Shown one piece after another: positions 30,233 through 48,400 of a DNA stretch of 54,409 bases. This DNA is from Candidatus Aerophobota bacterium (GTDB lineage: Bacteria > Aerophobota > Aerophobia > Aerophobales > JAGGVN01). The stretch lies in contig JAGGVN010000129.1 of the NCBI GenBank assembly GCA_021158005.1, positions 1 through 54,409 of the forward strand, given 5' to 3'. The notes below the pieces were generated by a model. It did not search any database and had not been told where the DNA came from. It worked only from the letters and a program-made list of their open reading frames with translations. Both the position numbers and the translations under genes were made by a program. The first letter of the stretch is position 1; each line of letters begins with the position of its first letter.

Positions 30233-31011
30233 GAGTGATTATTTCTAAAAATTACGAGGAGATGAGCAAGAAAGCTGCTGAAATTGTAGCTGAGAGATTA
30301 AGAAAAAAACCTGACCTGGTTCTGGGGTTAGCCACGGGAAGCACTCCCGTAGGAATGTATAAGGAGCTTATCCGTATGCATAAAGAAGGAAATCTGGACT
30401 TCTCCAAGGTAAAGACTTTTAATCTTGACGAATATTGTGGTCTTTCTCCAGATCATCCCCAGAGTTATCATTATTTTATGTGGGAGAATCTTTTTAATCA
30501 TATTAATATTAACCCAGCTAATGTTTATATTCCTTCCGGTGATATAGAAAATGTAGAAGCTTTTTGTAAATGGTATGAGGAAAAGATAAAAGAGGCTGGG
30601 GGTATAGACCTCCAGGTTTTAGGTATAGGAAGAGATGGTCACATCGGATTTAATGAACCAGGCTCATCATTGACTTCAAGAACGAGAATAAAAACTTTGA
30701 CTGAAGAGACAGTAGAGGATAATGCTCGCTTTTTTGAAAAAAAGGAAGATGTTCCTCGTTATGCGGTGAGTATGGGACTGGGAACCATAATGGAAGCTAA
30801 GGAATGTCTTCTTTTAGCTAATGGGGCTAATAAAGCAGAGGCAATTCAGAAGGCTATAGAAGGACCAGTCTCTGCAAGTATTACTGCTTCTCTTCTTCAA
30901 TTTCATCCCCGAGCAATCTTCATTCTTGATGAAGAAGCGAGTAAAAATTTAAAGAGGCGAGAATATTACAGGTATGTAGAAAGAATGGCTCAGAAACTAA
31001 AGGAGAGGTGA
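30229..31011 (+). CDS. nagB: glucosamine-6-phosphate deaminase
   Basis: GLATGSTP, FNLDEY and GIGRDGHIGFNEPGS motifs. Confidence 0.9.
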   Translation: MRVIISKNYEEMSKKAAEIVAERLRKKPDLVLGLATGSTPVGMYKELIRMHKEGNLDFSKVKTFNLDEYCGLSPDHPQSYHYFMWENLFNHININPANVYIPSGDIENVEAFCKWYEEKIKEAGGIDLQVLGIGRDGHIGFNEPGSSLTSRTRIKTLTEETVEDNARFFEKKEDVPRYAVSMGLGTIMEAKECLLLANGANKAEAIQKAIEGPVSASITASLLQFHPRAIFILDEEASKNLKRREYYRYVERMAQKLKER

Positions 31012-31014
31012 AAA

Positions 31015-33641: not shown

Positions 33642-36101
33642 GTGAGGATTGTGGTATATAATCTTGGACTTTTATTTACCTGTCTTACCAGTTTTTTCCT
33701 TATCTTTATCGTCTATTTTAAAGCTCGTGAGCGGAAGTTAAGCAGGATATTTATTCTCATTAATTTAAGTGGGGCTATCTGGTCAGGAGGGCTCTTTATA
33801 TTTCATATTTATTCCTCGCCCAATATATTCTTACTTCGTCTCGCTCATCTTGGAATTATTTTTCTCCCTGTTCTTTATTTACATTTTCTTCTCTCGTTTT
33901 TTAATTTGACCCGGAAGAAAAGAAAATTTCTCTTATCATTTTACGGTTTAACTTTCTTCCTTGTCCCTTTTAGCTTTAGCAAACTTTATGTCTCATCTAT
34001 AATTTTTAACCCTGTATTAGGCTATGTTAACCGGCCAGGACCACTTTATTATATTTTTGAGGGTATATTCTTATTTGCCATTATTTATGGTTGTTTACTT
34101 TTAATAAAGGGTTTAAGAAAAGTTAGAGGTTTTAGACGGAGTCAAATAAGATACTATTTACTTGGTTCTATTTTAGGTCTTGGAGGAGGAGCAACTACCT
34201 TTTTGCCTCTCTTTGGGATAAATATCCCTCCGGTAGGAATATATTTAGTTCCCCTTTATGGAATATGTATTACCTATGCTATAGTTAGATATAGGTTAAT
34301 GGAGATTCGCCTTGTTCTGCGGAAGGGTATAATTTATTTTTTAACTACCAGTTTTGTGACTACTTTTATTATAGTTATTCTTTTCTTATTCACTCGATTC
34401 TACCACCAGATTATAGGATTTAAATCTTTTAGTCTTACGGTAATTTTTGCTTTTCTTTTAGCTTTGATTTTGCAACCTTTAAGGGAAAAAATAGAGTTCT
34501 GGATAGATAAATTATTTTATCAAAGGAGAGTTAATTACTACTCTACTTTAAAGGATGCTACCCGAAAACTTGTTTCTATTCTGGAGATGTCGGAATTATT
34601 AAATTTTATAGTAAATACTCCTATTGAATTAATAGGGATAGAGAGTGGCCAATTATTATTATTAAATGAAGAGGAAAATAATTATGAGGTAAAAGTCAGT
34701 TACTCTTCTTCCGGAAAAAGAGATAAGAAAAAGGTTACAATATCCGGAAAGAAAGGTCTGGTGAAAATATTAAAGGATAAAAAAGATTTTCTTTTAAAGG
34801 AATATCTTTTTTCTGTAAAGTCTGATCCCGAAGTGAAGATGGCTAAAGAGCAATTAAGAAGACTCCATTCATCCTTGGTCTTTCCTTTAGTTTTTCAAAG
34901 CCAGATTTTAGGAATTTTGTCTCTGGGAGAGAAAGTCTCGGGGGAAGCATATTCTAAAGATGATCTTGAACTGCTTTCTCTTTTTGCGGGGGAGGCGGGA
35001 ATAGCTTTGAAGAATGCTCAGCTTTTCTGGAGAATAAAAGAGATGAAGAGTTATAATGAAAGAATCTTAGAGAATATGAGTGGAGGATTGATTGGCCTTG
35101 ATAGTAAGGGAAGAATTTTTGCTTTTAACAAAAAAGCAGAGGATATTACCGGTCATCCCTCCTCTAATATTCTGGGAAAAAGAGTGGAAGTTTTAAAAGA
35201 ACCCTTAGCTACTCTTCTTAAGAATTCTCTAAGGAAAGGAGAGGTTTATTCAGGACTGGAGATTAATTTATCCAGAGGAAATGGGAAGAATATCCCCGTC
35301 TCCATAAGTACATCCAGAATTGGCCTAAAAAGAAAAGAAAAAGAAATCATTGTTATTCTTAATGATCTTTCTGAAAGAAAGGGATTGGAAAGGCAAATAC
35401 GACAGGCAGAGAAGTTAGCCTCTTTAGGAACTCTTGCAGCTAGAATGGCTCATGAGATTAAAAATCCTCTTGTCTCTATCCGAACATTTGCAGAGCTCCT
35501 TCCTTCAAAATTTAAGGATGAAGAATTTAGAGAACAATTTTCTTCCTTAGCCTTAGAAGAAGTAGAACGGATAGATAATCTTATTACAAAGCTTTTAAAT
35601 TTTACCCGTTCCAAAGATTATCATTTTGAGGTTCTTTCTGTAGAGATGTTGATTGAGGAAAGTCTTTCTTCTCTTCAGATTCAGATCTCAAAGCAGAATA
35701 TAAAAGTAAGAAGAGATTATCTTCCAGATATTCCTTCTATATACGGAGATAAGGAAGAATTAAAACAGGTTTTCTTAAATATTCTTACTAATTCTGTGGA
35801 GGTAATGCCTGAGGGTGGAGAGATCTTCATTGCTACTCGTAAGAAGAAAGAAAGAGGGGAGCTTTTTGTGAGTATTCTCTTTTCCGATACCGGAGGAGGG
35901 ATTCCCCAGGAAAATCTGGATAAAATCTTTGACCCTTTTTTCACTACCAAAGTTAAAGGGTCTGGATTAGGTCTATTCATCTCTTATAAGATTATTCATG
36001 AACATCACGGAAATATCCAGGTGAGAAACATAGAGAAAGGTGCAGAATTTTCCATCTCTTTACCTGCTTATAAAATAAAAGAAGAGGGAAAGATTAAATG
36101 A
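33642..36101 (+). CDS. membrane sensor histidine kinase (N-terminal 7TM sensor, GAF, PAS, HisKA, HATPase)
   Basis: About 280 aa of polytopic membrane segments, a GAF-like region, PAS (ILENMSGGLIGLD), H-box MAHEIKNPL, N-box NILTNSVE, and G boxes DTGGGI and GSGLGL. Confidence 0.88.
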   Translation: MRIVVYNLGLLFTCLTSFFLIFIVYFKARERKLSRIFILINLSGAIWSGGLFIFHIYSSPNIFLLRLAHLGIIFLPVLYLHFLLSFFNLTRKKRKFLLSFYGLTFFLVPFSFSKLYVSSIIFNPVLGYVNRPGPLYYIFEGIFLFAIIYGCLLLIKGLRKVRGFRRSQIRYYLLGSILGLGGGATTFLPLFGINIPPVGIYLVPLYGICITYAIVRYRLMEIRLVLRKGIIYFLTTSFVTTFIIVILFLFTRFYHQIIGFKSFSLTVIFAFLLALILQPLREKIEFWIDKLFYQRRVNYYSTLKDATRKLVSILEMSELLNFIVNTPIELIGIESGQLLLLNEEENNYEVKVSYSSSGKRDKKKVTISGKKGLVKILKDKKDFLLKEYLFSVKSDPEVKMAKEQLRRLHSSLVFPLVFQSQILGILSLGEKVSGEAYSKDDLELLSLFAGEAGIALKNAQLFWRIKEMKSYNERILENMSGGLIGLDSKGRIFAFNKKAEDITGHPSSNILGKRVEVLKEPLATLLKNSLRKGEVYSGLEINLSRGNGKNIPVSISTSRIGLKRKEKEIIVILNDLSERKGLERQIRQAEKLASLGTLAARMAHEIKNPLVSIRTFAELLPSKFKDEEFREQFSSLALEEVERIDNLITKLLNFTRSKDYHFEVLSVEMLIEESLSSLQIQISKQNIKVRRDYLPDIPSIYGDKEELKQVFLNILTNSVEVMPEGGEIFIATRKKKERGELFVSILFSDTGGGIPQENLDKIFDPFFTTKVKGSGLGLFISYKIIHEHHGNIQVRNIEKGAEFSISLPAYKIKEEGKIK

Positions 36102-38059
36102 CTACTATTTTGTTGATTACCCGGGAAAAGAGACGGAGAAATTTACTGGAAAAGTTATTGAACAGTGATTATATTATCATAGTTGCTCATAAAGAGGAGA
36201 AAATTTCTCTATTATCGGAAAAAGTAGACATAATTATCCTTGATTTTGTTTCTCTGGGATTTGAGGGTTTAAAAATTATCTCGTGGATAAGAGATATTAG
36301 TAATTCTTTAATTATTATAGGTTGGGGCTCTCGGGAGAAGAAAGAATTTAAGGAAGAAGCAAAACTCTACGGAGTTTATGAATATATTGATGATTCTTTA
36401 AAAGCTGAGGATATTTCTTCCATTCTTCAGCGTGCTCTTACCCAGAGAAGATATCAAGAGAAACTTAAAGGTGAGAAGAATTCAAGTAAAAAGGAAATAG
36501 AGGAGACCCCCCATAGTCATTTCTCTTTAAAGGATATCTATCGATATAAAGATTCTTTGAAGAATTTTTCTCGTCTTTTATCAGTCCGTTTCGACCTGGA
36601 AAGATTTCTAAATTCTTTTCTTCTCCTCCTAAGAGAAATGTTGGGGATTAATCGGTTATATATATTATTGAGAGAAGGAGAAAATTATGTAGTGAAAGCT
36701 TCCCTGGGGGGGATGAAAGAGATTGTAGATAATGTGAAATTTTCTTCTCAATGCGGATTAATTAAGTATCTTGTTAAGGAAGGCACTATTGTGTATAAGA
36801 AGAGAGTGGATAGTCTTCTCTATCCAGGAATAAATAGAGAAATGGAGATTTTTGGGGTAGAAGTGGCTATTCCTTTAATAAAAGGAGGGGAACTAGCGGG
36901 GGTGCTTCTTCTCGGCCGAAAAGTTATTGGAAAAGTATTAACTGAGGAAGATTTAGAGTTTCTTTATTTTTTGGCTGATCAAATGGGTATAGCCATAGAA
37001 AATGTATTTTTATACCAGAGAATTGCCTCTCAGAAGAGGTATACGCAAACTATTCTGGAGAATGCCGATTCAGGAGTAATAACTATTGATGAAAAAGAAA
37101 GGATAGTTACTTTTAATCCCCGGGCGGAAAAAATTCTTGGTCTTAAAGCTTCCGAGATGATTGGAAAGGATATAAGAAGTTTACCTGCTCAAATAGCTGA
37201 CCTCTTATACGAAGCTCTTTCCACAGGAAAATCATATCACCGTCATGAAATAAAGCTACCTCCGGGTAAATGTCATTTGGGAGTGAATACCAGCCAGCTA
37301 CGGAATGGTCAAAATCAAATTGTGGGAAGTATGATGATGTTTACAGACCTTTCTCCAATTAAAAGATTAGAGAGGCAAAAAAAATATGCAGAAAAACTTG
37401 AGTTTCTTAATGAGGTTTCTATGCACCTCTCTCAGGAGCTTAAGAATTGTCTTGTTCCTATCCGAACTTTTACAGAGCTTTTTCCTCATAAATATTTAGA
37501 TGAGGATTATCGGACTAATTTTTATTCCTTAGTCATTAAAGAGGTAGAAAGACTCGAGTCTCTGGTAGAGAGATTACTCTTCTTTACTCAACCTCTTCAT
37601 TTAATTTATGCTCCTGAGAGTGTTTCCCATTTAATAGAAGAGAGTCTCTCTACTTTAAAAGATGTAGATTTTTCTTCTATAGAGATAAAAAGAGAGTATG
37701 AAGAAGATTTGCCCTCTGTTTTTGTCGATAAAGAGTATATAGTTAAGGCGCTTTCTAATGTTTTTCGTAACAGCATAGAAGGGATGAGAGGAAAGGGAAA
37801 GCTTTGTATAAATTGTGGAAAAGAGAAATCTTCTATAAAGATTGAAATTGAAGATAATGGTGAAGGAATAAAGAAAGATTATCTTCTCCGGGTTTTTGAC
37901 CCTTTCTTTTCCACTCGTAGTAAAGGGATGGGGATAGGTTTAACTATTGCCCAGAGAATAATTGAGGAACATAAGGGCAAGATTGATCTGGAGAGTGAGG
38001 AAGGAAAAGGGACGAAAGTTATTATTTGCCTTCCTCGAGGGAGGAGAGGAGAAGAATGA
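36098..38059 (+). CDS. soluble histidine-kinase-like protein (degenerate receiver, GAF, PAS, HisKA-like, HATPase)
   Basis: ATGA overlap with the upstream kinase. N-terminal CheY-like fold lacks the acidic pair and the Lys. PAS (ILENADSGVITID). H-box position reads SQELKNCL. Intact N/G boxes (NVFRNSIE, DNGEGI, GMGIGL). Confidence 0.82.
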   Translation: MTTILLITREKRRRNLLEKLLNSDYIIIVAHKEEKISLLSEKVDIIILDFVSLGFEGLKIISWIRDISNSLIIIGWGSREKKEFKEEAKLYGVYEYIDDSLKAEDISSILQRALTQRRYQEKLKGEKNSSKKEIEETPHSHFSLKDIYRYKDSLKNFSRLLSVRFDLERFLNSFLLLLREMLGINRLYILLREGENYVVKASLGGMKEIVDNVKFSSQCGLIKYLVKEGTIVYKKRVDSLLYPGINREMEIFGVEVAIPLIKGGELAGVLLLGRKVIGKVLTEEDLEFLYFLADQMGIAIENVFLYQRIASQKRYTQTILENADSGVITIDEKERIVTFNPRAEKILGLKASEMIGKDIRSLPAQIADLLYEALSTGKSYHRHEIKLPPGKCHLGVNTSQLRNGQNQIVGSMMMFTDLSPIKRLERQKKYAEKLEFLNEVSMHLSQELKNCLVPIRTFTELFPHKYLDEDYRTNFYSLVIKEVERLESLVERLLFFTQPLHLIYAPESVSHLIEESLSTLKDVDFSSIEIKREYEEDLPSVFVDKEYIVKALSNVFRNSIEGMRGKGKLCINCGKEKSSIKIEIEDNGEGIKKDYLLRVFDPFFSTRSKGMGIGLTIAQRIIEEHKGKIDLESEEGKGTKVIICLPRGRRGEE

Positions 38060-39045
38060 GTTTGTCCAGAGGAACCATTCTTGTAGTTGATGATGAGAGA
38101 GGAATACGAGAATCTTTAAAAATGATTCTTAAGGATAAGTATAAAGTAGTTACTTTTGAGAGTCCTGAAGAAGTTCTCAAGAATTCTTCTATTGATGTTG
38201 ATGTAATTTTTTCTGATATAAAGATGTTAAGTATGAATGGCATCTCTTTCTTAAAAAAGATTAAATCTTTAAAGCCAGAAGTTGAGGTGATTATGATTAC
38301 TGCCTATCCCAGTTTTTCCACTACTCTGGAAGCCTTACGATGCGGAGCGTTTGATTATATCGTTAAACCATTCAACAAAGATGAGATTTTGCGGGTGGCA
38401 GAAAGAGCTATTCAGAAAAAGATCGAGCTAATTGAAAATGAAAGAATGATGAGAGATTTGACCCACTCTCTTCAAGAAAATTATCAAGCTACTATTGATG
38501 CTTTAATTTTAGCCATAGATGCTAAGGACGCTTATACCGCCCGCCATTCTCGAAGAGTCTCTTATCTTTTTGGAAAGGTGCTCAGAAAGATAGGATTTGA
38601 GGAAGATAAAATTGACCTGCTTACTCATATTGCCGGATTGCACGATATAGGCAAAATCGGAATCAGTGAATATATTTTAAGAAAACCTTCTTCTTTAACG
38701 GTGAAGGAGTATGAAGAGATTAAGCGACATCCCCTCATAGGTTACAAAATTCTCAAATCTATGAAATTCCTTAAAAATGGTTTAAGTGTAGTGCTCTATC
38801 ATCATGAAAAATTTAATGGCCAGGGATATCCTGAAGGTCTAAAAGGAGAAGAGATTCCCTACGAAGTAAGGATATTTAGTATTATAGATGTCTATGATGC
38901 TCTGGTTACCGATAGATGCTATCGGAAGAGAATGTCTTCCCGGGAAGCTCTTCGGGAATTAGAATCTCGTGGGGGAAAAGATTTCGATCCTCGTTTAATT
39001 ACTTTAGTTGTCCCTATACTCTCTAAGATCGAAGGGTATAAGTAG
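38056..39045 (+). CDS. response regulator with HD-GYP domain (c-di-GMP phosphodiesterase type)
   Basis: REC (LVVDDERG, FSDIKM, IMITAY, IVKPF) followed by HDIGKIGI and HHEKFNGQGYPEGL. Start ATG 38056 overlaps the upstream stop (ATGA). Confidence 0.88.
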   Translation: MSLSRGTILVVDDERGIRESLKMILKDKYKVVTFESPEEVLKNSSIDVDVIFSDIKMLSMNGISFLKKIKSLKPEVEVIMITAYPSFSTTLEALRCGAFDYIVKPFNKDEILRVAERAIQKKIELIENERMMRDLTHSLQENYQATIDALILAIDAKDAYTARHSRRVSYLFGKVLRKIGFEEDKIDLLTHIAGLHDIGKIGISEYILRKPSSLTVKEYEEIKRHPLIGYKILKSMKFLKNGLSVVLYHHEKFNGQGYPEGLKGEEIPYEVRIFSIIDVYDALVTDRCYRKRMSSREALRELESRGGKDFDPRLITLVVPILSKIEGYK

Positions 39046-39139: not shown

Positions 39140-40597
39140 ATGAGTCTTCGTGTCCTTATTCATCATTTACTCTTTTTTCTTCCGGTAGGAGTGATATTTA
39201 TTCTCTTAATTAAGAAATTTTTTTACCGAAGTAAGGAGTTGAGTAAAAAAGTTTCTCAACTTTCCGCTCTTAATAGAATAGGGAGAGCCTTAAGTTCTTC
39301 TTTAAGTTTAAAGAGTCTTCTTAGTTTAATCATCTCGGCAAGTATTTCTTTAGTAGGCGGAAAAGATGCTTTTCTCTACCTTTTGAATAAAAAGACCGGT
39401 AAGTTAGAGAGAAAAGATAAAGTCTCCCCACCGGATGACCCTTATTACGAGATAGCTCTTTATGTAATGGAGAAAAAAACTCCTCTTCTTTTGAATAAGA
39501 GTAGTGAAAAGAATTTATTTACCTTTATTTTTGATAAAATAAAAGGCCTAAGTTCTCTTATTTGTATTCCTCTGGTTACTAAAGAAAAATTATGGGGAGT
39601 ATTAGGGGTAGAGAATTTCTCTAATTTCTTCAATGAGGCTGATTTAGAGCTTCTCTCTACTTTTGCTAATGAAGCAGCTACTTCCATTGAAAATCGCTCT
39701 TTAATGGATGACCTTCTCCGTTTCCAAAAGTTAAATTCTTTTAACAGAACATCTTCTATTGTAGCTCATGATTTGAGAAACTCTATTTCTCGACTTTCTT
39801 TTCTTATCCAGAATGCAAAAATGAATTATAAAGACCCGGAATTCCAAAAAGATTTAATAGATACCCTCTCTTATACTATTAAAAAAATGGAAAACTTAGT
39901 AGAGAGATTGTCGGGTTCGCCTTCTCTTTTAACACTGAAGATAGGTTCAATAAACGAAATTCTTCGCCAGGCAGTAAAGGATTTAAATTTGCATAAGGAA
40001 AAAATGATAAAACTAAAGGAAAATTACCGAGATGTTCCCCGATTAATAATGGATAGAGAGAATATGAAGAGGGTATTTGTAAATTTTCTTCAAAATGCAC
40101 GCGAAGCTATGCCTGAAGGAGGAGAAATTGGAATATCTACTTATGAGAAAAAAGAATCATCAGAAGTATTTATAGAAATCTCTGACAGTGGATGCGGGAT
40201 GGATGAAGAATTTATGGAGCAGAGTTTATTTAACCCTTTCGTGACTACCAAAGAGAAGGGGCTGGGACTTGGTCTTTTCTCTTCTCAGGAGATTATTTCG
40301 CTCCATGGAGGAAGAATAGAGGTGGAGAGTAAGGTAGGTCAGGGGACGAAATTTACAGTAGTTTTACCTGTTCCTCCGAGAAAGAAGAGAATAGAAGCAA
40401 TCAGTAAGCTTATTGGAGAATATCTTCTGGAAATGGGAGCTATTGGTCCCTCGGAGTTAAAAAAAGCAGTAGAAATTCAAACTAAAGATAGAAGAAAGAT
40501 AGGAGAAATTCTTATAGATCTTGGGTATATTAGAGAAGAGCAGTTATCCGCAGCCCTAAAGAGACAAAAAGAGATGGAGGAAAAATTAAGTGGGTAA
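39140..40597 (+). CDS. sensor histidine kinase (TM, GAF, HisKA, HATPase) with C-terminal MshEN/T2SSE_N-like domain
   Basis: One N-terminal TM segment, a GAF-like region, H-box SIVAHDLRNSISRL followed by NAKMNYKDPEFQKD (PrsK-like flavour), N-box FLQNAREA, DSGCGM and GLGLGL. The last 62 aa carry two 24-residue (L/K)IGxxLLxxGxIxxxxLxxxxxxQ repeats. Confidence 0.85.
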   Translation: MSLRVLIHHLLFFLPVGVIFILLIKKFFYRSKELSKKVSQLSALNRIGRALSSSLSLKSLLSLIISASISLVGGKDAFLYLLNKKTGKLERKDKVSPPDDPYYEIALYVMEKKTPLLLNKSSEKNLFTFIFDKIKGLSSLICIPLVTKEKLWGVLGVENFSNFFNEADLELLSTFANEAATSIENRSLMDDLLRFQKLNSFNRTSSIVAHDLRNSISRLSFLIQNAKMNYKDPEFQKDLIDTLSYTIKKMENLVERLSGSPSLLTLKIGSINEILRQAVKDLNLHKEKMIKLKENYRDVPRLIMDRENMKRVFVNFLQNAREAMPEGGEIGISTYEKKESSEVFIEISDSGCGMDEEFMEQSLFNPFVTTKEKGLGLGLFSSQEIISLHGGRIEVESKVGQGTKFTVVLPVPPRKKRIEAISKLIGEYLLEMGAIGPSELKKAVEIQTKDRRKIGEILIDLGYIREEQLSAALKRQKEMEEKLSG

Positions 40598-41939
40598 GAT
40601 TCTTATTGTTGATGATGATAAATATTTACGAAAGCAGATTTATTGGGCTTTTAAAAAATATTATAGACTTTTGGAGGCAGAGAATGGAGAAGAAGCTCTA
40701 AAAGTTATGAAGAAAAATTTTGTAGATTTAGTGCTTTTAGACCTTCACCTTCCTCCTCAAAAGGATACTCCCTTAGAGGGAATAAAAGTTCTAAAAGAAA
40801 TCAGGAAAAATTATCCCGAGGTTGTAATTATTGTAATTACGGGAGATAATGAGAAGAAAACAGCCTTAGAAGCCATAAACCTGGGAGCGTATGATTATTT
40901 TTCTAAACCTTTTGATTTGAGTGAAATGAAGATAATACTTAAAAGAGCTCTTTATCTTCAAAGTTTGGAGAGAGAAAATAGACGTCTTTCTGAAGAGCTT
41001 CAGGAGAAGTATCAGTTTAGTAATTTAATCATTGGAAAGAGCAAAAAAATACAGGAAGTGTTCACTCTTATAAGGAGAGTAGCCCAAAGTAATTGTAATG
41101 TGCTCATTCGTGGAGAAAGTGGGACTGGTAAGGAACTTGTAGCCCGAGCTATTCACTATAATAGTTCCCGAAAAGATAAGCCTTTTGTTCCTGTAAATTG
41201 CGCCGCTTTGCCCCAGGACCTTTTAGAAAGTGAACTATTTGGTTATGAGAGGGGTGCTTTTACGGGAGCTACCAGCCAGAAGCCGGGTAAGTTTGAAATC
41301 TCTTCAGGGGGAACAATCTTTTTGGATGAAGTTGCGGATATGAGCCTTTCTATGCAGGCTAAGATATTAAGAGTTATTCAGGAGAGAGTTTTTGAAAGAG
41401 TAGGAGGAACAAAGTCTATAAAAGTGGATATTCGTATTATTGCAGCTACCAATAAAGATCTGGAGAAAGCTGTGAAAAATAACTCTTTTAGAGATGATCT
41501 TTACTATCGTTTAAATGTTGTCTCTATTTATATCCCTCCTTTAAGAGAAAGAAGAGAGGATATTCCTCTTTTAGCTAATTTTTTCTTAAAGAAGTATGCT
41601 AAAGAAAACAAGAAGCAAATAAATGGTTTTTCGCCCGAAGCAATGGATTCTTTGATGAGATATGATTGGCCTGGTAATGTGCGAGAGCTGGAGAATATTA
41701 TAGAAGGAGCAGTAGTTTTGGGAAGGAGTAATCTTATTCTTCGTGAAGACCTTTTTTTGACTTCCTCCCAAGAGGTTTCTTCTGATGAAGAGGCTTCTCT
41801 TCCCTTAATGGAACAAGAAAAGAGGCTTATTAAAAGGATTTTAAATAAAACTGGTGGTAATCAAACAAAAGCGGCAAAACTTCTGGGAATTCATAGAAAT
41901 ACCCTCCGTCGCAAAATTAAAAAGTATAATCTTGCCTGA
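40590..41939 (+). CDS. sigma-54-dependent response regulator (NtrC family; PrsR-like receiver)
   Basis: REC (ILIVDDDKY, LLDLHLPPQKDTPLEG, VITGD, FSKPF); AAA+ with GESGTGKE, the GAFTGA sigma-54 contact loop and FLDEV; C-terminal Fis-type HTH GNQTKAAKLLGIHRNTLRRKIKK. GTG start overlaps the upstream stop by 8 nt. Confidence 0.92.
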   Translation: MGKILIVDDDKYLRKQIYWAFKKYYRLLEAENGEEALKVMKKNFVDLVLLDLHLPPQKDTPLEGIKVLKEIRKNYPEVVIIVITGDNEKKTALEAINLGAYDYFSKPFDLSEMKIILKRALYLQSLERENRRLSEELQEKYQFSNLIIGKSKKIQEVFTLIRRVAQSNCNVLIRGESGTGKELVARAIHYNSSRKDKPFVPVNCAALPQDLLESELFGYERGAFTGATSQKPGKFEISSGGTIFLDEVADMSLSMQAKILRVIQERVFERVGGTKSIKVDIRIIAATNKDLEKAVKNNSFRDDLYYRLNVVSIYIPPLRERREDIPLLANFFLKKYAKENKKQINGFSPEAMDSLMRYDWPGNVRELENIIEGAVVLGRSNLILREDLFLTSSQEVSSDEEASLPLMEQEKRLIKRILNKTGGNQTKAAKLLGIHRNTLRRKIKKYNLA

Positions 41940-42053
41940 ATCTCCTTGCCCTTAATCTGAATTTATTAATCTTTTATACTCTATATTTTGTTTGTCTAAC
42001 TATGGGCTTTAGTCTTCATCTATTTTTTGTCCTTCTTTAGAAGGAATGATTAT

Positions 42054-42093
42054 TGCCCTATTTTGGTTTATATTTTTGTACTAAAATAAGTCA
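42054..42093 (+). promoter_or_regulatory. putative enhancer (UAS) A: two 17-bp NtrC-like dyads
   Basis: TGCCCTATTTTGGTTTA (42054-42070) and TGTACTAAAATAAGTCA (42077-42093), 23 bp centre to centre, about 60-100 bp upstream of the -24 element. Homologous to cassettes B and C. Confidence 0.6.
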
Positions 42094-42152
42094 AGAAAGA
42101 ACATTTTAAAGATATTTTTTGTAAAGGCTAATTAAAAGCTTCTTAAGGAAAT

Positions 42153-42168
42153 TGGCTAAAAAATTGCT
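42153..42168 (+). promoter_or_regulatory. sigma-54 (-24/-12) promoter A
   Basis: TGGCTA-AAAAA-TTGCT: GG and GC are 12 nt apart, exactly as in the TGGCAC-N5-TTGCW consensus. About 80 nt upstream of the receiver gene start. Confidence 0.75.
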
Positions 42169-42627: not shown

Positions 42628-42631
42628 TTAT

Positions 42632-42670
42632 TGCACTATTTTAGTTCATTATTTGCACTAAAATAAGTCA
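42632..42670 (+). promoter_or_regulatory. putative enhancer (UAS) B: two 17-bp NtrC-like dyads
   Basis: TGCACTATTTTAGTTCA (42632-42648) and TGCACTAAAATAAGTCA (42654-42670), 22 bp centre to centre. Both have a 7-3-7 dyad layout. Confidence 0.65.
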
Positions 42671-42736
42671 AGAAAATATGTCTTTTTTACTGACTGTTTT
42701 CTTTAATTTGAAGAGTTAAGGAAATATTTTAAAAAT

Positions 42737-42752
42737 TGGCTAAAAAATTGCT
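42737..42752 (+). promoter_or_regulatory. sigma-54 (-24/-12) promoter B
   Basis: Identical 17-mer TTGGCTAAAAAATTGCT as in promoter A, about 40 nt upstream of the TTG start at 42791. Confidence 0.78.
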
Positions 42753-42790: not shown

Positions 42791-43750
42791 TTGGAGAAAA
42801 AAACATTTATAAAAATAAGCAGATTTGTTCTCATTTTCTTCTCAATTATAGGAATGAGTTCCATTTCTTTTTCTCAGGACTTAAATTTCCAAATAAATCC
42901 AACGTATATTTCTTTTGGCAAGGTTATTCCTGTAGATGAAGAAGGAAATCTTAGGCAGGTAATAAAAAAGATGGAAATAGAAGGAAAGATTAAAAGTAAT
43001 CATAAATGGGTTCTTAAAGCATATCTCTTAGATAATTTTAGAGATGTTCAAAATCCTTCATCTACTCTTCCTTCTCAGCGTATGAGTATCAAAGTAAGTG
43101 ATTATTCTCGCAAAAAGGGATTTATTCCTCTCTCCCTTCAATCTGTAGTAATTGCTCAGGGAGAGCCTACCTCCGAAGAAATTCAGCTTAATATAAATCT
43201 TCAAATAATAATTAGGCCTTATGATCCACCTGGTAGATACACCTCGGATATTATTTATCTTTTAGATAACGGTGTCTCTACTTCTATTGAAAAGAGAATC
43301 TCTGTGGAAGTAGAAGTTCTTCCTTTAATGGATGTTGGTATTACTCCTCAAAAGCTTTTAATTAAAGTGCGCACTTCTCCAGAGGAAGAATATGAAGATT
43401 TTTTAGGAGAACCAATCGTTATTATCCTCTCTACTAATTGTGATTGGGAGTTGAAGGTAAAAGGGTTGGAAGATTTAATAGATGTCTCTGATGAGAATAA
43501 GAAACTTTCTATCGAGTATCTTGAATATCGAGTCATAAATTGTGGTAAGAATTGGATGCCCGTTTCTGATAAATGGAGGTCTTTTAGTAAAAAAGAAGTA
43601 GTAGTTGCTCGTGGAGGCTCTACTTTTGAGGAACCAGACCAAAGAGCAATTATTAAGATACTTTATCGGTTAAAGAGAAGTTGGGAGCAAGCATCAGGAG
43701 AGTATAGTGTAGGTATTGCCTACAGCATATCTACATTAGAAAATAAATAA
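42791..43750 (+). CDS. secreted two-module beta-rich protein (putative fibre minor/tip subunit)
   Basis: Signal peptide FVLIFFSIIGMSSISFSQ/D. Two modules each end in a G-x-Y strand (PPGRYTSDIIYLL; ASGEYSVGIAYSI). GGAG lies 8 nt before the TTG start. Confidence 0.6.
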   Translation: MEKKTFIKISRFVLIFFSIIGMSSISFSQDLNFQINPTYISFGKVIPVDEEGNLRQVIKKMEIEGKIKSNHKWVLKAYLLDNFRDVQNPSSTLPSQRMSIKVSDYSRKKGFIPLSLQSVVIAQGEPTSEEIQLNINLQIIIRPYDPPGRYTSDIIYLLDNGVSTSIEKRISVEVEVLPLMDVGITPQKLLIKVRTSPEEEYEDFLGEPIVIILSTNCDWELKVKGLEDLIDVSDENKKLSIEYLEYRVINCGKNWMPVSDKWRSFSKKEVVVARGGSTFEEPDQRAIIKILYRLKRSWEQASGEYSVGIAYSISTLENK

Positions 43751-43832
43751 AATAAAAGATAAAGGGAGGTGAAAAAAGAAAAAAATGAAAACATTAAGAA
43801 TAAAATTTAAAAAGGAAAAGGAGGCAAGAAAA

Positions 43833-44573
43833 ATGAAAAAAATGTTAGGATTAGTGTTGGCGGTAGTGATGGTACTTTCCATGGGAGGATTTGCTTTTGC
43901 GGACCAACCTGAAGGTGTGCAGGGAGTTGAGGAGGGGTATAAGCAAAGTGTGATGTTTACTGTATACACTGTAGTGAATCTTCCCTGTTACCTAGAGGTA
44001 ACCTTAGAAGGAAATGAAGTGGGAACCCCTGCGCATCCAGCTGTTACTAAAGTATCAAAAGGAGACGAGCAAATAATTTTTGATACTTGGAGCAACTATC
44101 CTGGCTGGTATATGACCTTCTTTGAAGATCAGCAGGAGAATTATAATCCAACTAATGTGGGCTCTCCTGTTTCAGGTCCTGGTGCAAATAAGTGGCTCTA
44201 TGATTGCTCTCAAACACTTCCTCCTATCTGGCATATCACCATTAAGGCGACTGATACCTGGAGGCTTTATCTTCTTGGCGGAGATTTAGCTAATGAGGAG
44301 GGCGAGAAAATCAGGATTCAGCGTAAAGTTAGCGGTGCAAAAACCTTAGGTTATGCCAATATGGCTGGAGGAGGAGAAGCTACTCCCTCTAATGGTTCAT
44401 TTGGACCAGCAGCGAGTGACAGTTTCGCGACTATGATTGCTCAGTGGATTGACACTCAGGGGCCTACAGCAGGAACTTCTTATTACTTTAGATATAGAAT
44501 TCCCCATACCTGGACGACCCCTCAAGGTTTCTTTGAAGGAAAAATGGGTTATTTCGTAGCTTCTTACGAATAG
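43833..44573 (+). CDS. secreted protein (putative major fibre subunit)
   Basis: Start placed at ATG 43833, 8 nt after GGAGG. Signal peptide MKKMLGLVLAVVMVLSMGGFAFA/DQ. C-terminal amphipathic strand GYFVASYE. Visibly higher GC than its neighbours. Followed by a strong hairpin. Confidence 0.6.
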   Translation: MKKMLGLVLAVVMVLSMGGFAFADQPEGVQGVEEGYKQSVMFTVYTVVNLPCYLEVTLEGNEVGTPAHPAVTKVSKGDEQIIFDTWSNYPGWYMTFFEDQQENYNPTNVGSPVSGPGANKWLYDCSQTLPPIWHITIKATDTWRLYLLGGDLANEEGEKIRIQRKVSGAKTLGYANMAGGGEATPSNGSFGPAASDSFATMIAQWIDTQGPTAGTSYYFRYRIPHTWTTPQGFFEGKMGYFVASYE

Positions 44574-44603
44574 TAAGTAAAGATAAGCATAGAATGAAAC
44601 AAA

Positions 44604-44639
44604 AAAAGGGGGATGTATATATAAATGCATTCCCCTTTT
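44604..44639 (+). terminator. intrinsic terminator/attenuator hairpin after the putative major subunit gene
   Basis: GGGGGATGTAT-ATATAA-ATGCATTCCCC (44608-44635): an 11-bp stem with two G-U pairs, flanked by an A-run and followed by TTTT. Confidence 0.65.
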
Positions 44640-44658
44640 AAATAACAGGAGATCGAAA

Positions 44659-45483
44659 TTGAAAAAAAATTTAAAAATGAGAATGTTGGGTGGAATATTA
44701 TTATTATTAGAAGTAATCCTTTTTATCAGTTTTCCCCTATTTGCCAGTACAAAAGGGACTTTAAGGGTGGAACCGGTTCGTTTTGAATTTCCCCTTCCTC
44801 GTGGATATAAACATACTGCTGCTCTCACTGTCAGTAATACTTATGAATATAGTATAAGACTTAAGGCAAAAGTTTATGATTTTGATGTAGATGAAAGAGG
44901 AAATATGATTCCTTTGAAAGCAAGTACTACTCCCCTTTCCTGTTCTTCCTGGATTAAGTTTAATCCTAGAGAATTTGAGGTATCTCCAGGAGAAAGGCAA
45001 GTGGTTCGTTTTACGGTACATGCTCCAAAAGACGCTATAGCTGGAGAACATCGATGTGTTATTATCTTTGAAACTCCTCCTGTAGCTAAAGAGGGCACAG
45101 TGGCAGTAGTGTTAAATATAGGAGTAGTTGTTTATGCTGCTGTTCCCGAGATTAAAAGAAGTTGCAAAATAAACAATATTGAAGTTTATTATGAAAAAGG
45201 TATTCTCGAATTTATGGTGGAGTTGTATAATTCCGGTAATGCCCGCTTTCGAGGTAAAGGTGAATATAAAATTAAAAATAATAAAGGTGATATCATCTTT
45301 GAAGATAAGTTTCCCTACTTTACGGTAATGCCTGATAAGGTTTTACTGATTCCTTTGGAGAAAGAGATAGAACTTACATCTGGAAATTATACTTTTTCTC
45401 TGGAGCTTAAGGAAAGAGCCCGGGGAAATCCTCCTCCTTTTAGCAAAGAAATTAATTTTGAGGTAAAAGAAGGTGGAAAATAA
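44659..45483 (+). CDS. periplasmic PapD-like (Ig-fold) chaperone candidate
   Basis: AGGAG lies 7 nt before the TTG start; signal peptide present. LRVEPVRFEF...TAALTVSNTYEYSIRLKAKVY...IKFNPREFEVSPGERQVVRFTV...GEHRCVIIFE follows the fimbrial chaperone strand pattern. A second Ig-like lobe follows. Confidence 0.5.
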   Translation: MKKNLKMRMLGGILLLLEVILFISFPLFASTKGTLRVEPVRFEFPLPRGYKHTAALTVSNTYEYSIRLKAKVYDFDVDERGNMIPLKASTTPLSCSSWIKFNPREFEVSPGERQVVRFTVHAPKDAIAGEHRCVIIFETPPVAKEGTVAVVLNIGVVVYAAVPEIKRSCKINNIEVYYEKGILEFMVELYNSGNARFRGKGEYKIKNNKGDIIFEDKFPYFTVMPDKVLLIPLEKEIELTSGNYTFSLELKERARGNPPPFSKEINFEVKEGGK

Positions 45484-45485
45484 CT

Positions 45486-48400
45486 ATGCATATTTACAAA
45501 CACTATTTTATACTTTTATTTTTGTCCTTTGGTTTAATTATTTCTAATCTTTTTATCCCTCCTTTATTAGCTGCTAACCCGGAGGAAACCAGTATCGTTC
45601 TAATGCGGCTTAATGGAAAAGTAGATATTATTGACCTGGAGGTGGTGGAATATGAAAAAGATAAAATTGCTCTTCCGCTTATGGTGATGGGTAAGATTTT
45701 AGATGTTCCCATAATTTGGTCAAAAAAAGATAAAATAGCTACTTTTTATCGGCCTTCAGACGGATTAAAGTGTGAGGTTCATGAAGGAGCAAAATATTTA
45801 TTAATTGGTGAGCAACTTTTTCAAGTTGATTTTCCCCCTTTGTGGATAGAGAAGGATTTATTTGTTCCCTTAGAATTTATTGAGAAAGGAATGGAAGTTG
45901 AACTAAAATGGAGTTTTTCAGAGCAAGCAGTTATAGCTACTTGCAGTCGAGACTTGAAACTTTTGAGTCCCTCGCCAAGAGGGAGAGAGAGCGAAGTAGC
46001 CGAAAAGAAGGAAGAATCTCCTCCTCAGAAGAAAACATCTTTTCTTTCCTTGAATTACTTTGATTATAAGTTATCTCATCGTGCTGAATTTTTAAAGGAA
46101 ACAAAATTAGACCCTTTGGTCAATTACTCGGAGGGTATACTTAATATAGGAACGAGAGGGAGACTTTTTGGAGGAAACTTTGATTTCAATACAGAATTAG
46201 CCACTTCTTCCAAAGACTTTCTTGGAGATATTATTTCATCTATTACAGGAAAACTTCGTTATCCTATCTTTGGTGGAGAAGTAGACATAGGGGATAGCTC
46301 CACAACTTTCTCTCAATTAACATTACAAGATATTAGCTTGCGAGGGATACAAGTAGGTATACCTAAGATAGAAGGAAGGATTACTTATGTTTCTCCGAGT
46401 ATAATTAAAGGTAAAGCCCTAGAAGGTTCTACAGTGGAACTTTGGGTAAATGATATATTTACCGCTAAGAAAGTGGTGGGTAAAGATGGCATCTATGAGT
46501 TTTCTAATATTTTTTTGCTTATGGGCGATGTTAATAAGGTAGAAATTTTTATTACAAACCCTCAAGGGGAAAAGAGAAAAATTGTCAAAAAGTATTTGGC
46601 TATTCCTGAAATTCTAAATAGAGGTGAAAGTCGTTTATCTATTTCAGGAGGATTAATTAAAGGCTCTGATGAGAAAGACTATTCTCGTCTTCTCTATGGA
46701 TTTAGATACCTTTATGGAATTAGTAAGGATTTAACATTGGGTTCTATAATAGTAAGTCAGGAAGATAAAAAATATATGGTAGAATCAGGAGTTGCTCCTT
46801 TATCTTCTCTTAATTTAGGATTATTGGGTAGCTGGCGCTTAATGAATAACTTTGTTATTACTGGGGAGATTAATCGCTCTAATTATGATCCTGATTGGAC
46901 AAACAAAGTTTCTTCTGAGGAGGAAAAAGAAGATTTTGCCTGGAGAGTGGAAGGCTTCTATAAGTCGGGAAGATTAACTTTAAGGCCTGCTTACCACAGA
47001 TATGGTAGTAATTACTATTCTACCGATGAATCCAGTGCAGATTCAGAAGGAATTAATGTGAATGGAAGATATATGTTTAGTAAGAGTCTAACTCTTTCAG
47101 CAGTTTATAGAGATTCTCATAATAATGTGGATGGAGAGAAAGAAGAAACGCTTTTTTCTTCTTCGTCTGGTCTTACTCTTAATACTAATTTATCTAAAAG
47201 ATCAAAATTAGGTTTGGGATACGGAATTAACTATCGTTATGATAAATCTCATTTAAAAATTGATTATAAAGTAAAGAATTTCTCAGGGAACTATAGTTAT
47301 CAGTTTCCCAATCTACTTACCTTTACTCTTAAAGGCAGCTCAATGATTACTAAAGATTTTATAGAATCCAATAATGACTTTAAAAAAGATGAATATTTTT
47401 TAAAGTTGAGTCAGAAACAGAAGAATGAAAATTACTGGAGCGTGGAACAATCTTTATCTCTTTATTCTTCACCCTCTGAGGAAAGTGAGAGTTCTTCTAC
47501 TAAGATTAAGTGGTCCGAAGGTGAAAAAGAAAGAAGACCCAGTTTCTATGCTCATCTTGGCTATAAATATAACGAAAATCCAGATGTTCGTTCTTCGGCT
47601 AAAGTATATTCTTTGGCTCTTGGCTTTGTTCGAAAATCAGTTTCTCAAGAGATAGGTTATTCTTGTGAGTTCGGATATAATCAGAATTACACTATTGAAA
47701 ATATTCTTAAGAGTGACCATGCTCACTTTTCTCTGGGTGCTGAATATAAGTGGGGGGACTCGGGATTAGAAATAGGTTTAAAATATACCTATAATTTTTC
47801 TCCTATTACTGGAGAGCGTTCGTTTGGTGGTATACGGGTAGCTCTTAATCAGGGTTTGGCTCTTTCTGGAGCAGAAGAAACACTTTCTGATGATTTACCG
47901 ATTGTTCCCAGTGGTAAAGTTAAAGGAAAAGTTTTTCTTGATTACAATCATAATGGGATTATGGATGAGAATGAACCTGGTGTTCCAGGGATCAAAGTAG
48001 GTTTGTTTCATCGCTATCTTCAGAATTCTGATAAAGAGGGAAATTTTTATTTCCCCAGGATTCCTGTTGGTGTGTATAAAGCGAATATTGACCTATATTC
48101 CTTGCCTGCTTCTTATTCTGTGACTACTCCTCCAGTAGAAATAGAAGTAAAATTAAATGAAACAGTGATAGTTAACTTAGGAATAATTCCTGTGGTTAGT
48201 ATCACCGGGAGAGTATTTTTAGATGAAAACAAAAATGGAATATATGATAAGGGAGAAAAAGTAGGGGGAGGTATTCGGCTGGTTTTAGATGATGGTAAGA
48301 GAGATACTTATACTGACCCTGACGGGAGCTATTATTTTGGGGAGGTATTCCCTGGGGAGCATATTATTACTGTAGATTTAGGAACTTTCTCTAAAAAAGT

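What the first reader, a model, noticed from the sequence alone, without database searches (positions are those of the whole stretch)
40409..40567. Histidine kinase carrying a C-terminal MshEN-type c-di-GMP-binding motif pair
Seen in sequence: the last 62 residues of the kinase at 39140-40597 read LIGEYLLEMGAIGPSELKKAVEIQ - TKDRR - KIGEILIDLGYIREEQLSAALKRQ.
Established knowledge: the MshEN (T2SSE_N) c-di-GMP receptor is defined by two 24-residue motifs, RLGxx(L/V/I)(L/V/I)xxG(L/V/I)(L/V/I)xxxxLxxxLxxQ, separated by a 5-residue spacer. It is normally found on secretion or pilus ATPases. Here both 24-mers and the 5-residue spacer fit position for position, except that the leading Arg is Leu in repeat 1 and Lys in repeat 2 (Arg residues sit in the spacer).
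Inference: kinase output to the sigma-54 activator may be gated directly by c-di-GMP. I do not recognise this domain fusion as a described architecture. The Arg substitutions leave binding uncertain.
Basis: partly seen in the sequence, partly recalled or inferred. Interest (0 to 1): 0.68.

Follow-up and report, generated by a model that had tools for sequence, protein, structure and literature searches.

The report
Sensor kinase with c-di-GMP-binding tail

Summary
Residues 424-476 of the 485-aa kinase (window 40409-40567) are two 24-residue MshEN-type motifs joined by a 5-residue spacer. NCBIfam's 53-position model of the MshE-related c-di-GMP-binding domain matches end to end (81 bits, cutoff 38, E 4e-23). 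V. cholerae MshE aligns in register. An AlphaFold model superposes on c-di-GMP-bound MshE at 0.8 A.

Pfam T2SSE_N does not hit. That is expected, because the tail has only the MshEN_N subdomain.

Thermus PilF GSPII-B has Lys and Leu at these two positions and binds c-di-GMP at 6 nM, and its K167L variant binds at 2 nM.

The fusion is conserved in about 25 uncultivated-bacterium kinases (one named Candidatus Aerophobetes). It always sits next to a PrsR-like sigma-54 response regulator. In this clade it also sits next to a REC-HD-GYP c-di-GMP phosphodiesterase and upstream of sigma-54-type promoters for secreted-protein genes.

Binding of c-di-GMP and its effect on the kinase are inferred, not shown. 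I found no paper describing a classical HisKA/HATPase_c kinase with a C-terminal MshEN_N. The verdict is a new variant of a known kind, of moderate interest.

The parts
39140..40597 (+). Sensor histidine kinase gene, 485 aa: one N-terminal TM helix, GAF, HisKA/DHp, HATPase_c, MshEN_N tail
   Evidence: ORF listed. Pfam finds GAF_2, HisKA and HATPase_c. H210 H-box, N319 N-box, D349xGxG and G374xGxG are present. The core resembles PrsK TIGR02916 (222 bits, below the cutoff of 300).
39308..39709 (+). Cytoplasmic GAF domain (about residues 57-190)
   Evidence: Pfam GAF_2 at 55-184, E=4.9e-10. AF2 secondary structure agrees.
39731..40375 (+). DHp (residues 198-259, with phospho-acceptor H210) and catalytic ATP-binding domain (residues 267-412)
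   Evidence: Pfam HisKA at 206-257 and HATPase_c at 305-412. Catalytic motifs are present. AF2 elements agree.
40376..40408 (+). Short basic linker (residues 413-423, PRKKRIEAISK). K423 is invariant in the family.
   Evidence: Low pLDDT at 418-422 in the full-length model. K10 of alignment A2 is invariant.
40409..40480 (+). MshEN motif I, residues L424-Q447
40481..40495 (+). Five-residue spacer TKDRR (residues 448-452)
   Evidence: The spacer length matches the published 5-residue spacer.
40496..40567 (+). MshEN motif II, residues K453-Q476
40568..40594 (+). C-terminal continuation of the last helix (KEMEEKLSG)
   Evidence: AF2 predicts helix 53-71 of the tail model.
40590..41939 (+). REC - sigma-54 AAA+ - Fis-HTH response regulator (PrsR-like). 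Its start overlaps the kinase stop by 8 nt.
   Evidence: TIGR02915 scores 530 bits against a cutoff of 502.6. Pfam domains. 82 % identical in close relatives and 63-64 % in distant ones.
38026..39045 (+). REC - HD-GYP response regulator, a probable c-di-GMP phosphodiesterase, immediately upstream
   Evidence: Pfam Response_reg + HD_5. NCBIfam 'response regulator c-di-GMP phosphodiesterase' partial hit. The HDIGK and HHEKFNGQGYP motifs are readable in the translation. The gene is conserved next to the kinase in L005-L007.
33642..38059 (+). Two further sensor kinases of the same gene string (7TM-GAF-PAS-HK, and REC-GAF-PAS-HK)
   Evidence: Pfam. Conserved in L006 and L007.
42052..42168 (+). Upstream element (42052-42098) plus -24/-12 sigma-54-type promoter TTGGCTAAAAAATTGCT (42152-42168), ahead of the REC gene at 42247
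42630..42752 (+). Second copy of the upstream element (42630-42675) plus the identical -24/-12 element (42736-42752), ahead of the secreted-protein operon at 42791-48488
   Evidence: The same layout is present in L005 and L007.
51052..51161 (+). Third copy (element at 51052-51090; TTGGTAAAAAAATTGCT at 51145-51161), ahead of the 850-aa beta-barrel/S-layer-like gene at 51221
   Evidence: Pfam Porin_4/SlpA_C weak hits. C-terminal ...LLYKF.
42791..48488 (+). Probable regulon: four genes for signal-peptide proteins (319, 262, 274 and 1000 aa) with no family assignment except SdrD_B/CarboxypepD_reg in the last
   Evidence: Homologues of the 274-aa protein and of the C-terminus of the 1000-aa protein lie downstream of the kinase/regulator pair in relatives.

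Best explanation
The kinase is a membrane-anchored, cytoplasm-sensing (GAF) class I histidine kinase. Its catalytic domain is followed, after an 11-residue basic linker, by a functional MshEN_N four-helix module that binds one c-di-GMP molecule. Each guanine would stack between the first residue of a motif (L424 or K453) and a hydrophobic triangle (I425/I454, L440/V444, L469/L473). The backbone amides of G426-E427 and G455-E456 would read the Hoogsteen edge, as in MshE and PilF GSPII-B. Because the module is tethered directly to the ATP-binding domain, ligand binding is proposed to change how the catalytic domain engages the DHp helix. That would shift the kinase/phosphatase balance toward the PrsR-like sigma-54 activator encoded 8 nt into the kinase's end. 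The activator would then drive the three sigma-54-type promoters downstream (a single REC gene, a four-gene secreted-protein operon and a beta-barrel protein gene). My best guess for the sign is that high c-di-GMP raises net phosphorylation and so switches on surface-protein genes. This follows the usual c-di-GMP logic and the ShkA and NfrB precedents, and I put it at about 60:40. The REC-HD-GYP protein encoded just upstream would lower local c-di-GMP and may be under phosphorylation control, which would give feedback. Shown here: the domain identity, its conservation, the catalytic motifs, the gene order and the promoter-like elements. Inferred: c-di-GMP binding, the effect on the kinase and its sign, the regulon, and the feedback.
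For: The dedicated profile NF053729.1 scores 81 bits against a cutoff of 38, E=3.8e-23, full length. The alignment to MshE (5htl, E=1.1e-5) and PilF (E=1.1e-9) is in register. The AF2 tail model has pLDDT 82 and four helices. Its best PDB matches are c-di-GMP-bound MshE (rmsd 0.8 A over 56 columns, TMq 0.75) and then c-di-GMP-bound PilF GSPII-B structures. All four glycines (G426, G433, G455, G462), both glutamines (Q447, Q476) and the hydrophobic positions are present. G426, L429, L430, I435, L440, Q447, G455, L458 and Q476 are invariant across 20 family members down to 38 % identity. Leu and Lys at motif position 1 are inside the experimentally extended consensus and are associated with nM affinity. 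Isolated MshEN_N binds c-di-GMP. The tail is present in all ~25 full-length relatives. The kinase has intact H, N, G1 and G2 boxes. The adjacent PrsR-like regulator is conserved at 63-82 % identity. An intact HD-GYP gene is adjacent in this clade, and an HD-GYP domain gene lies near the distant L008 locus. Sigma-54 -24/-12 elements with a shared upstream element occur three times downstream and are conserved in relatives. Precedents exist for C-terminal MshEN activating an N-terminal enzyme (NfrB) and for c-di-GMP-controlled histidine kinases (ShkA, RavS, CckA, MtrB).
Against: There is no binding or activity measurement. Pfam T2SSE_N does not hit. Foldseek E-values are weak (0.011) because the domain is only ~56 residues. 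Position 2 is Ile rather than Leu in both motifs, and position 21 of motif I is Val. These residues form the guanine-stacking clusters, and single hydrophobic substitutions cost more than 10-fold affinity in MshE. In the more distant clade, the turn glycine of motif I (position 10) is often Glu or Lys, so binding may not be universal in the family. The full-length monomer model has pTM 0.40 and says nothing reliable about how the tail packs on the kinase. No diguanylate cyclase is encoded in the window. The sign of regulation is a guess.
Confidence: 0.6

Rival explanations
1. The tail is a ligand-independent or degenerate MshEN_N fold. It would serve as a protein-protein docking or dimerisation module, for example to recruit the HD-GYP regulator or another partner, as in XpsE/GspE N-domains that lost c-di-GMP binding or Xanthomonas PilB, whose N-domain binds PilZ.
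For: Non-binding MshEN homologues exist (XpsE). The X. citri PilB N-domain/PilZ complexes appear among the fold matches (ranks 13-15). The distant clade has lost the motif I turn glycine. There are Ile-for-Leu substitutions at position 2.
Against: XpsE lost binding through many non-conservative changes (G11V, I19R, L29R, R38G, G40L, L54H, L58C, Q61V). None of the equivalent positions is disrupted here. The ligand-contact positions are the most conserved columns of the tail. The dedicated c-di-GMP-motif profile scores twice its cutoff.
Confidence: 0.15
2. The tail binds c-di-GMP but does not regulate catalysis. Instead it might localise the kinase, buffer the messenger, or pass the signal to a partner such as the REC-HD-GYP protein or the single REC protein.
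For: The module is small and joined by a flexible linker. Stand-alone 58-83-aa MshEN_N proteins very similar to this tail are common, and in one relative the tail is a separate 72-aa ORF (P0121 next to P0026). The module may therefore work in trans.
Against: The fusion directly after the CA domain is kept in all other relatives, with a short linker of conserved length. Known fused MshEN domains act in cis on their enzyme (MshE, PilF, NfrB).
Confidence: 0.15
3. The module's physiological ligand is another cyclic dinucleotide, such as 3'3'-cGAMP, rather than c-di-GMP.
For: VcMshEN binds cGAMP weakly (Fig. 1h legend).
Against: The Gly-X backbone amide readout that selects guanine on both sides is conserved in both motifs. 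An HD-GYP c-di-GMP phosphodiesterase gene is adjacent.
Confidence: 0.05
4. The motif pair is a chance resemblance in a helical, Leu/Glu/Lys-rich C-terminal extension.
For: The genome has low GC (36 %) and a Lys/Ile/Leu-rich proteome. Pfam T2SSE_N is silent.
Against: The profile E-value is 4e-23. No pair occurred in 200 shuffles. The alignment to two solved receptors is in register. The fold matches. The family is conserved.
Confidence: 0.01

Closest known systems
MshEN_N c-di-GMP receptor subdomain (V. cholerae MshE, PDB 5HTL; T. thermophilus PilF GSPII-B, PDB 8PDK)
   Same: It has two 24-residue motifs with a 5-residue spacer, all four Gly and both Gln, and a four-helix fold. Position-1 residues are Leu/Lys, as in PilF GSPII-B (Lys/Leu). 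The isolated subdomain is known to suffice for binding.
   Different: It sits at the C-terminus of a histidine kinase instead of the N-terminus of a secretion or pilus ATPase. It has no MshEN_C (T2SSE_N1) subdomain. Position 2 is Ile in both motifs. Binding is untested.
CheA with inserted MshEN_N (Aeromonas veronii CheA, EKB11881; Wang et al. 2016, Suppl. Table 4)
   Same: An MshEN_N module is fused to a histidine-kinase catalytic core, which implies c-di-GMP input into phosphotransfer.
   Different: CheA is a class II kinase (HPt-P2-dimerisation-HATPase_c-CheW) with the module inserted before the dimerisation domain. Here the kinase is class I HisKA/HATPase_c with the module after the CA domain, and it feeds a sigma-54 transcription factor rather than chemotaxis.
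c-di-GMP-controlled histidine kinases CckA, ShkA, RavS and MtrB
   Same: The concept is the same: the second messenger binds the kinase itself and changes kinase/phosphatase or phosphotransfer behaviour.
   Different: Those proteins bind c-di-GMP at the CA domain, a pseudo-receiver domain or other sites. None uses an MshEN module.
NfrB (E. coli glycosyltransferase with C-terminal MshEN)
   Same: A C-terminal MshEN allosterically controls an N-terminal enzyme domain in cis. A dedicated c-di-GMP enzyme works locally.
   Different: The output is a glycosyltransferase rather than a kinase. NfrB carries the full MshEN domain (Wang et al. 2016, Suppl. Table 4).
PrsK/PrsR two-component system of PEP-CTERM/exosortase loci, and EpsG (MshEN_N-AAA_31) of the same kind of loci
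   Same: The regulator passes the PrsR equivalog cutoff. The kinase's GAF-DHp-CA core is most similar to PrsK. EpsG shows that MshEN_N input occurs in such exopolysaccharide systems, and the tail also hits the EpsG N-terminus at E=1e-6.
   Different: The kinase lacks PrsK's large multi-TM N-terminal region and scores below cutoff. No exosortase or PEP-CTERM protein is present in the 54-kb contig, and the downstream secreted proteins have no PEP-CTERM tail.

Membership tests
MshEN_N c-di-GMP-binding module | Two 24-residue motifs separated by a 5-residue spacer (53 residues) | tested here: met
   424-447, 448-452 and 453-476.
MshEN_N c-di-GMP-binding module | Gly at motif positions 3 and 10 in both motifs (MshE G11, G18, G40, G47) | tested here: met
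   G426, G433, G455 and G462. Alignment to MshE is in register.
MshEN_N c-di-GMP-binding module | Hydrophobic cluster residues at positions 2, 17 and 21 (Leu in MshE) | tested here: met
   I425/L440/V444 and I454/L469/L473. These are conservative replacements, allowed by the relaxed motif of Wang et al.. The effect on affinity is unknown.
MshEN_N c-di-GMP-binding module | Gln at position 24 of both motifs | tested here: met
   Q447 and Q476, invariant in the family.
MshEN_N c-di-GMP-binding module | Stacking residue R/K/L at position 1 (extended consensus, PMC11731258) | tested here: met
   L424 and K453. The consensus extension and nM affinities are reported.
MshEN_N c-di-GMP-binding module | Significant hit to a family profile | tested here: met
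   NCBIfam NF053729.1 scores 81 bits against a cutoff of 38. Pfam PF05157 T2SSE_N gives no hit, as expected for MshEN_N-only proteins.
MshEN_N c-di-GMP-binding module | Four-helix bundle fold superposable on ligand-bound MshEN_N | tested here: met
   AF2 pLDDT is 82. Foldseek top hits are 5htl and 8pdk-type structures at rmsd 0.7-1.0 A, although the E-value is only 0.01.
MshEN_N c-di-GMP-binding module | Specific c-di-GMP binding | not testable with these tools
   This needs ITC or DRaCALA. No ligand co-folding tool was available.
Class I sensor histidine kinase (HisKA/HATPase_c) | H-box His plus N, G1 and G2 boxes | tested here: met
   H210, N319, D349xGxG and G374xGxG. Pfam hits.
PrsK (TIGR02916, XrtA/PEP-CTERM system histidine kinase) | Full-length equivalog score of at least 300 bits, including the N-terminal multi-TM region | tested here: not met
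   The score is 222 bits, and only profile positions 413-679 are matched. There is a single TM helix.
PrsK (TIGR02916, XrtA/PEP-CTERM system histidine kinase) | Genomic association with exosortase and PEP-CTERM proteins | tested here: inconclusive
   None is present in the 54-kb contig or in related loci. The rest of the genome is unseen.
PrsR (TIGR02915, PEP-CTERM-box sigma-54 response regulator) | Equivalog score above the cutoff, with REC + sigma-54 AAA+ + Fis HTH | tested here: met
   530.3 bits against a cutoff of 502.6. Domains.

The most novel reading that the evidence does not exclude
This would be a previously undescribed route by which c-di-GMP enters two-component signalling. A high-affinity, Arg-free MshEN_N module fused behind the catalytic domain of a classical histidine kinase would convert messenger level directly into phosphorylation of a sigma-54 activator. 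A phospho-regulated HD-GYP phosphodiesterase in the same gene string would close a local feedback loop. The output would be an uncharacterised cell-surface assembly operon in an uncultivated phylum (Aerophobetes-like).
Probability: 0.4. Interest if true: 0.6.

Novelty: new variant of a known kind. Interest (0 to 1): 0.5.

Why it matters
MshEN is one of only a few c-di-GMP receptor modules that are widespread across bacterial phyla. Its known partners are mostly ATPases and glycosyltransferases. Histidine kinases known to respond to c-di-GMP (CckA, ShkA, RavS, MtrB) each use a different binding site that cannot easily be predicted from sequence. A portable 53-residue module bolted onto a classical kinase would give a sequence-recognisable marker for c-di-GMP-controlled two-component systems in genomes. 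It would also extend the repertoire of MshEN outputs to transcription through sigma-54. Finally, it offers a compact system for studying how a C-terminal ligand-binding module controls the DHp/CA cycle. Pfam-based annotation misses it, so such proteins are currently labelled only as 'HAMP/GAF domain-containing' kinases.

Tried and rejected
- Pfam scans of the whole kinase and of the isolated tail gave no T2SSE_N hit, only weak DUF4388, FumaraseC_C and CREPT noise. I treated this as a model-coverage issue, not as evidence against the domain.
- The genome-contig scan with the kinase found only unrelated kinases (23-34 % identity, no tail). The source organism is therefore not among the GTDB representatives reachable by this tool.
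- The word-indexed search with the tail profile returned almost only short proteins (47-137 aa) and missed the kinases themselves. It could not be used to census architectures.
- The exhaustive representative search with the tail profile gave 10,616 hits. The top 150 are dominated by multi-repeat MshEN_N proteins, and only five are kinases, all from this one family. Other kinase fusions with lower tail scores cannot be excluded.
- The full-length AF2 monomer has pTM 0.40 and a low-confidence linker, so it says nothing about how the tail docks.
- I looked for PEP-CTERM tails, exosortase and GGDEF genes in the window and found none.
- A PDB sequence search with the conserved 274-aa downstream protein gave no hit.
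- A search for a CRISPR array near the Cas6-like gene found none.
- Literature searches for MshEN or T2SSE_N together with histidine kinase, PEP-CTERM or PrsK found no description of this fusion.
Full report
**Observation.** The ORF at 39140..40597 (+) encodes a 485-aa protein. In the six-frame translation of the whole window this is the only place where two relaxed MshEN motifs lie five residues apart. In 200 residue shuffles, single motifs turned up 0.57 times per shuffle and pairs never did.

One small correction is needed. Besides the two missing Arg residues, position 2 is Ile rather than Leu in both motifs. Position 11 is Ala in motif I and Tyr in motif II. Position 21 of motif I is Val. 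All are conservative and fall inside the relaxed pattern that Wang et al. used for their census.

**Is it an MshEN domain?** Pfam finds GAF, HisKA and HATPase_c in the protein but no T2SSE_N, even for the isolated tail at E<=1. The tail contains only the four-helix MshEN_N subdomain, and Wang et al. already list 'MshEN_N only, no T2SSE_N1 domain' proteins as a separate class.

- NCBIfam's dedicated 53-position model NF053729.1 ('cyclic di-GMP-binding domain, MshE-related') matches positions 2-53 at 81 bits against a cutoff of 38, E=3.8e-23.
- The tail also hits the MshEN-bearing parts of NfrB, EpsG and PilB more weakly.
- Against PDB sequences, the tail finds Thermus PilF (E=1.1e-9) and V. cholerae MshE 5HTL (E=1.1e-5). 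The alignment is gapless and in register, placing MshE R9 on L424 and R38 on K453.
- An AlphaFold2 model of the tail, built on a 14-sequence family alignment, has mean pLDDT 82 and the expected four helices.
- The best PDB matches of that model are c-di-GMP-bound MshE (rmsd 0.8 A over 56 columns, TMq 0.75) followed by a run of c-di-GMP-bound PilF GSPII-B structures. The Foldseek E-values are modest (0.01-0.1) because the domain is so short.

**The Arg question.** PMC11731258 answers this. PilF GSPII-B carries Lys (K167) and Leu (L196) at exactly these two positions and binds c-di-GMP with Kd 6 nM, 83-fold tighter than MshE. Restoring Arg weakens binding 4- to 25-fold. The K167L variant, which has Leu at motif I position 1 as this kinase does, binds at 2 nM. 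The authors extend the consensus to (R/K/L)LGxx... and propose that a hydrophobic first residue predicts very high affinity.

Wang et al. also showed that the isolated MshEN_N of V. cholerae MshE (residues 1-62) binds c-di-GMP at 0.35 uM, so the absence of the MshEN_C subdomain is not an obstacle. The basic run PRKKR...K423 just before motif I parallels the Lys5/Arg7/Lys8 patch of MshE.

**Conservation.** A database search with the kinase found about 25 full-length relatives at 41-99 % identity. Some have an extra sCache/HAMP sensor, and one is named Candidatus Aerophobetes. All of them end in the same module. In the closest relatives, motif II starts with the canonical RLGEIL. Across 20 aligned family members, G426, L429, L430, I435, L440, Q447, G455, L458, Q476 and the preceding K423 are invariant.

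There is one caveat. In the more distant clade the turn glycine of motif I is often Glu or Lys, so binding may not hold for every member.

An exhaustive profile search found 10,616 proteins with this module. Among the 150 best, only five are kinases, all from this family. In one relative the tail is a separate 72-aa ORF on what appears to be the same contig as a tail-less kinase (P0026/P0121).

**The kinase and its surroundings.** The kinase has one N-terminal TM helix and no periplasmic domain. It has a cytoplasmic GAF domain and intact H (H210), N, G1 and G2 boxes. Its core is most like PrsK but scores below that family's cutoff and lacks PrsK's multi-TM region.

The next gene overlaps the kinase's end by 8 nt. 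It is a REC/sigma-54-AAA+/Fis regulator that passes the PrsR equivalog cutoff (530 against 502.6 bits). Immediately upstream is a REC-HD-GYP protein with intact HD and HHExxxGxGYP motifs, a probable c-di-GMP phosphodiesterase. Before that are two more sensor kinases.

This gene string is kept in relatives at 77 % identity. Relatives at 43-45 % identity keep the kinase plus the sigma-54 regulator, and one of them has rpoN and an HD-GYP domain gene nearby.

Downstream, three intergenic regions share a two-part layout: an upstream element (TTGCACTATTTTAGTTCA..TTTGCACTAA) and, about 85-100 bp later, a -24/-12 element (TTGGCTAAAAAATTGCT) with correct GG-N10-GC spacing. They lie ahead of a single-REC gene, a four-gene secreted-protein operon and an 850-aa beta-barrel-like gene. 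The same layout is present in the 77 % relatives, and a canonical -24/-12 element precedes the downstream operon in a 45 % relative. A homologue of the 274-aa secreted protein recurs in those operons.

No diguanylate cyclase, exosortase or PEP-CTERM protein is present in the contig. The window is a whole 54,409-bp MAG contig with 36 % GC.

**Mechanism.** I commit to the following model, with overall confidence of about 0.6.

1. The tail binds one c-di-GMP in the MshE/PilF manner.
2. Because it is tethered by only about 11 residues to the ATP-binding domain, binding alters the engagement of that domain with the DHp helix and shifts the kinase/phosphatase balance toward the PrsR-like activator.
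3. The activator controls the sigma-54 promoters downstream.
4. The HD-GYP regulator trims local c-di-GMP.

The sign of the effect is a guess, with c-di-GMP stimulating output at about 60:40. [quoted passage not shown] The full-length monomer model is too uncertain (pTM 0.40) to test docking.

The rivals are:
- a ligand-independent docking module (0.15);
- binding without catalytic control (0.15);
- another cyclic dinucleotide as the ligand (0.05);
- chance (0.01).

**Comparison and novelty.** The module is a clear member of the MshEN_N family by every sequence and fold criterion that can be tested here. Binding itself cannot be tested with these tools. c-di-GMP control of histidine kinases is known (CckA, ShkA, RavS, MtrB), but through other binding sites.

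Wang et al.'s catalogue of MshEN architectures lists REC, HD-GYP, CheX, Ser/Thr kinase, cyclase, glycosyltransferase, EpsG and a CheA with an inserted MshEN_N. It does not list a classical HisKA/HATPase_c kinase with a C-terminal MshEN_N. Full-text searches found no later description.

It is therefore a new variant of a known kind. It is a plausible and testable addition rather than a surprise, because MshEN is known to be a promiscuous regulatory module. I score interest at 0.5.

Noticed in passing
window 42052-42168, 42630-42752, 51052-51161: Three intergenic regions share a candidate enhancer element (TTGCACTATTTTAGTTCA..TTTGCACTAA) followed about 85-100 bp later by a near-identical sigma-54 -24/-12 element (TTGGCTAAAAAATTGCT). 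The layout is conserved in related contigs L005 and L007, and a -24/-12 element is present in L009.
   Followed up: partly
window 42791-48488: A four-gene operon encodes signal-peptide proteins (319, 262, 274 and 1000 aa) with no Pfam or NCBIfam family, apart from SdrD_B/CarboxypepD_reg/Cu_amine_oxidN1 pieces in the last. Homologues of the 274-aa protein follow the kinase/regulator pair in distant relatives. This may be an undescribed surface-assembly system. The 274-aa protein has no PDB sequence match.
   Followed up: partly
P0026 and P0121 (both on an ENA contig of 5724 bp): In one relative the kinase (646 aa) stops right after the catalytic domain, and a 72-aa stand-alone MshEN_N ORF, the best hit of the tail profile, lies on a contig of the same length. 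This is either a frameshift or a natural split of the fusion.
   Followed up: no
proteins P0122-P0135: Many 58-83-aa stand-alone proteins consist of nothing but an MshEN_N module and are 40-50 % identical to this tail. They are not annotated by Pfam.
   Followed up: no
P0005-P0025 tails: In the distant clade of the family, the conserved turn glycine of motif I (position 10) is replaced by Glu or Lys, while motif II stays canonical. c-di-GMP binding may be weakened or altered there.
   Followed up: no
window 6533-7501: A Cas6-like endoribonuclease gene (Pfam CRISPR_Cas6, E=1e-22) has no CRISPR array or other cas genes in the contig.
   Followed up: partly
window 28769-32280: Archaeal-type GlmM (TIGR03990) and the alternative bacterial GlmU (TIGR03991) flank nagB. 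Two fabF paralogues lie nearby, at 26926-28170 and 32322-33563.
   Followed up: no
window 48556-50607 (-): An S8 subtilase has a fervidolysin-like prodomain and a C-terminal CHU_C/T9SS-type sorting domain. It lies between the two parts of the putative regulon.
   Followed up: no
L008 1-2967 and 2964-4133: In a distant relative's locus, a 988-aa protein with a C-terminal HD-GYP domain and an rpoN (Sigma54_DBD) gene lie just upstream of a second sigma-54 regulator and the kinase-MshEN gene.
   Followed up: no
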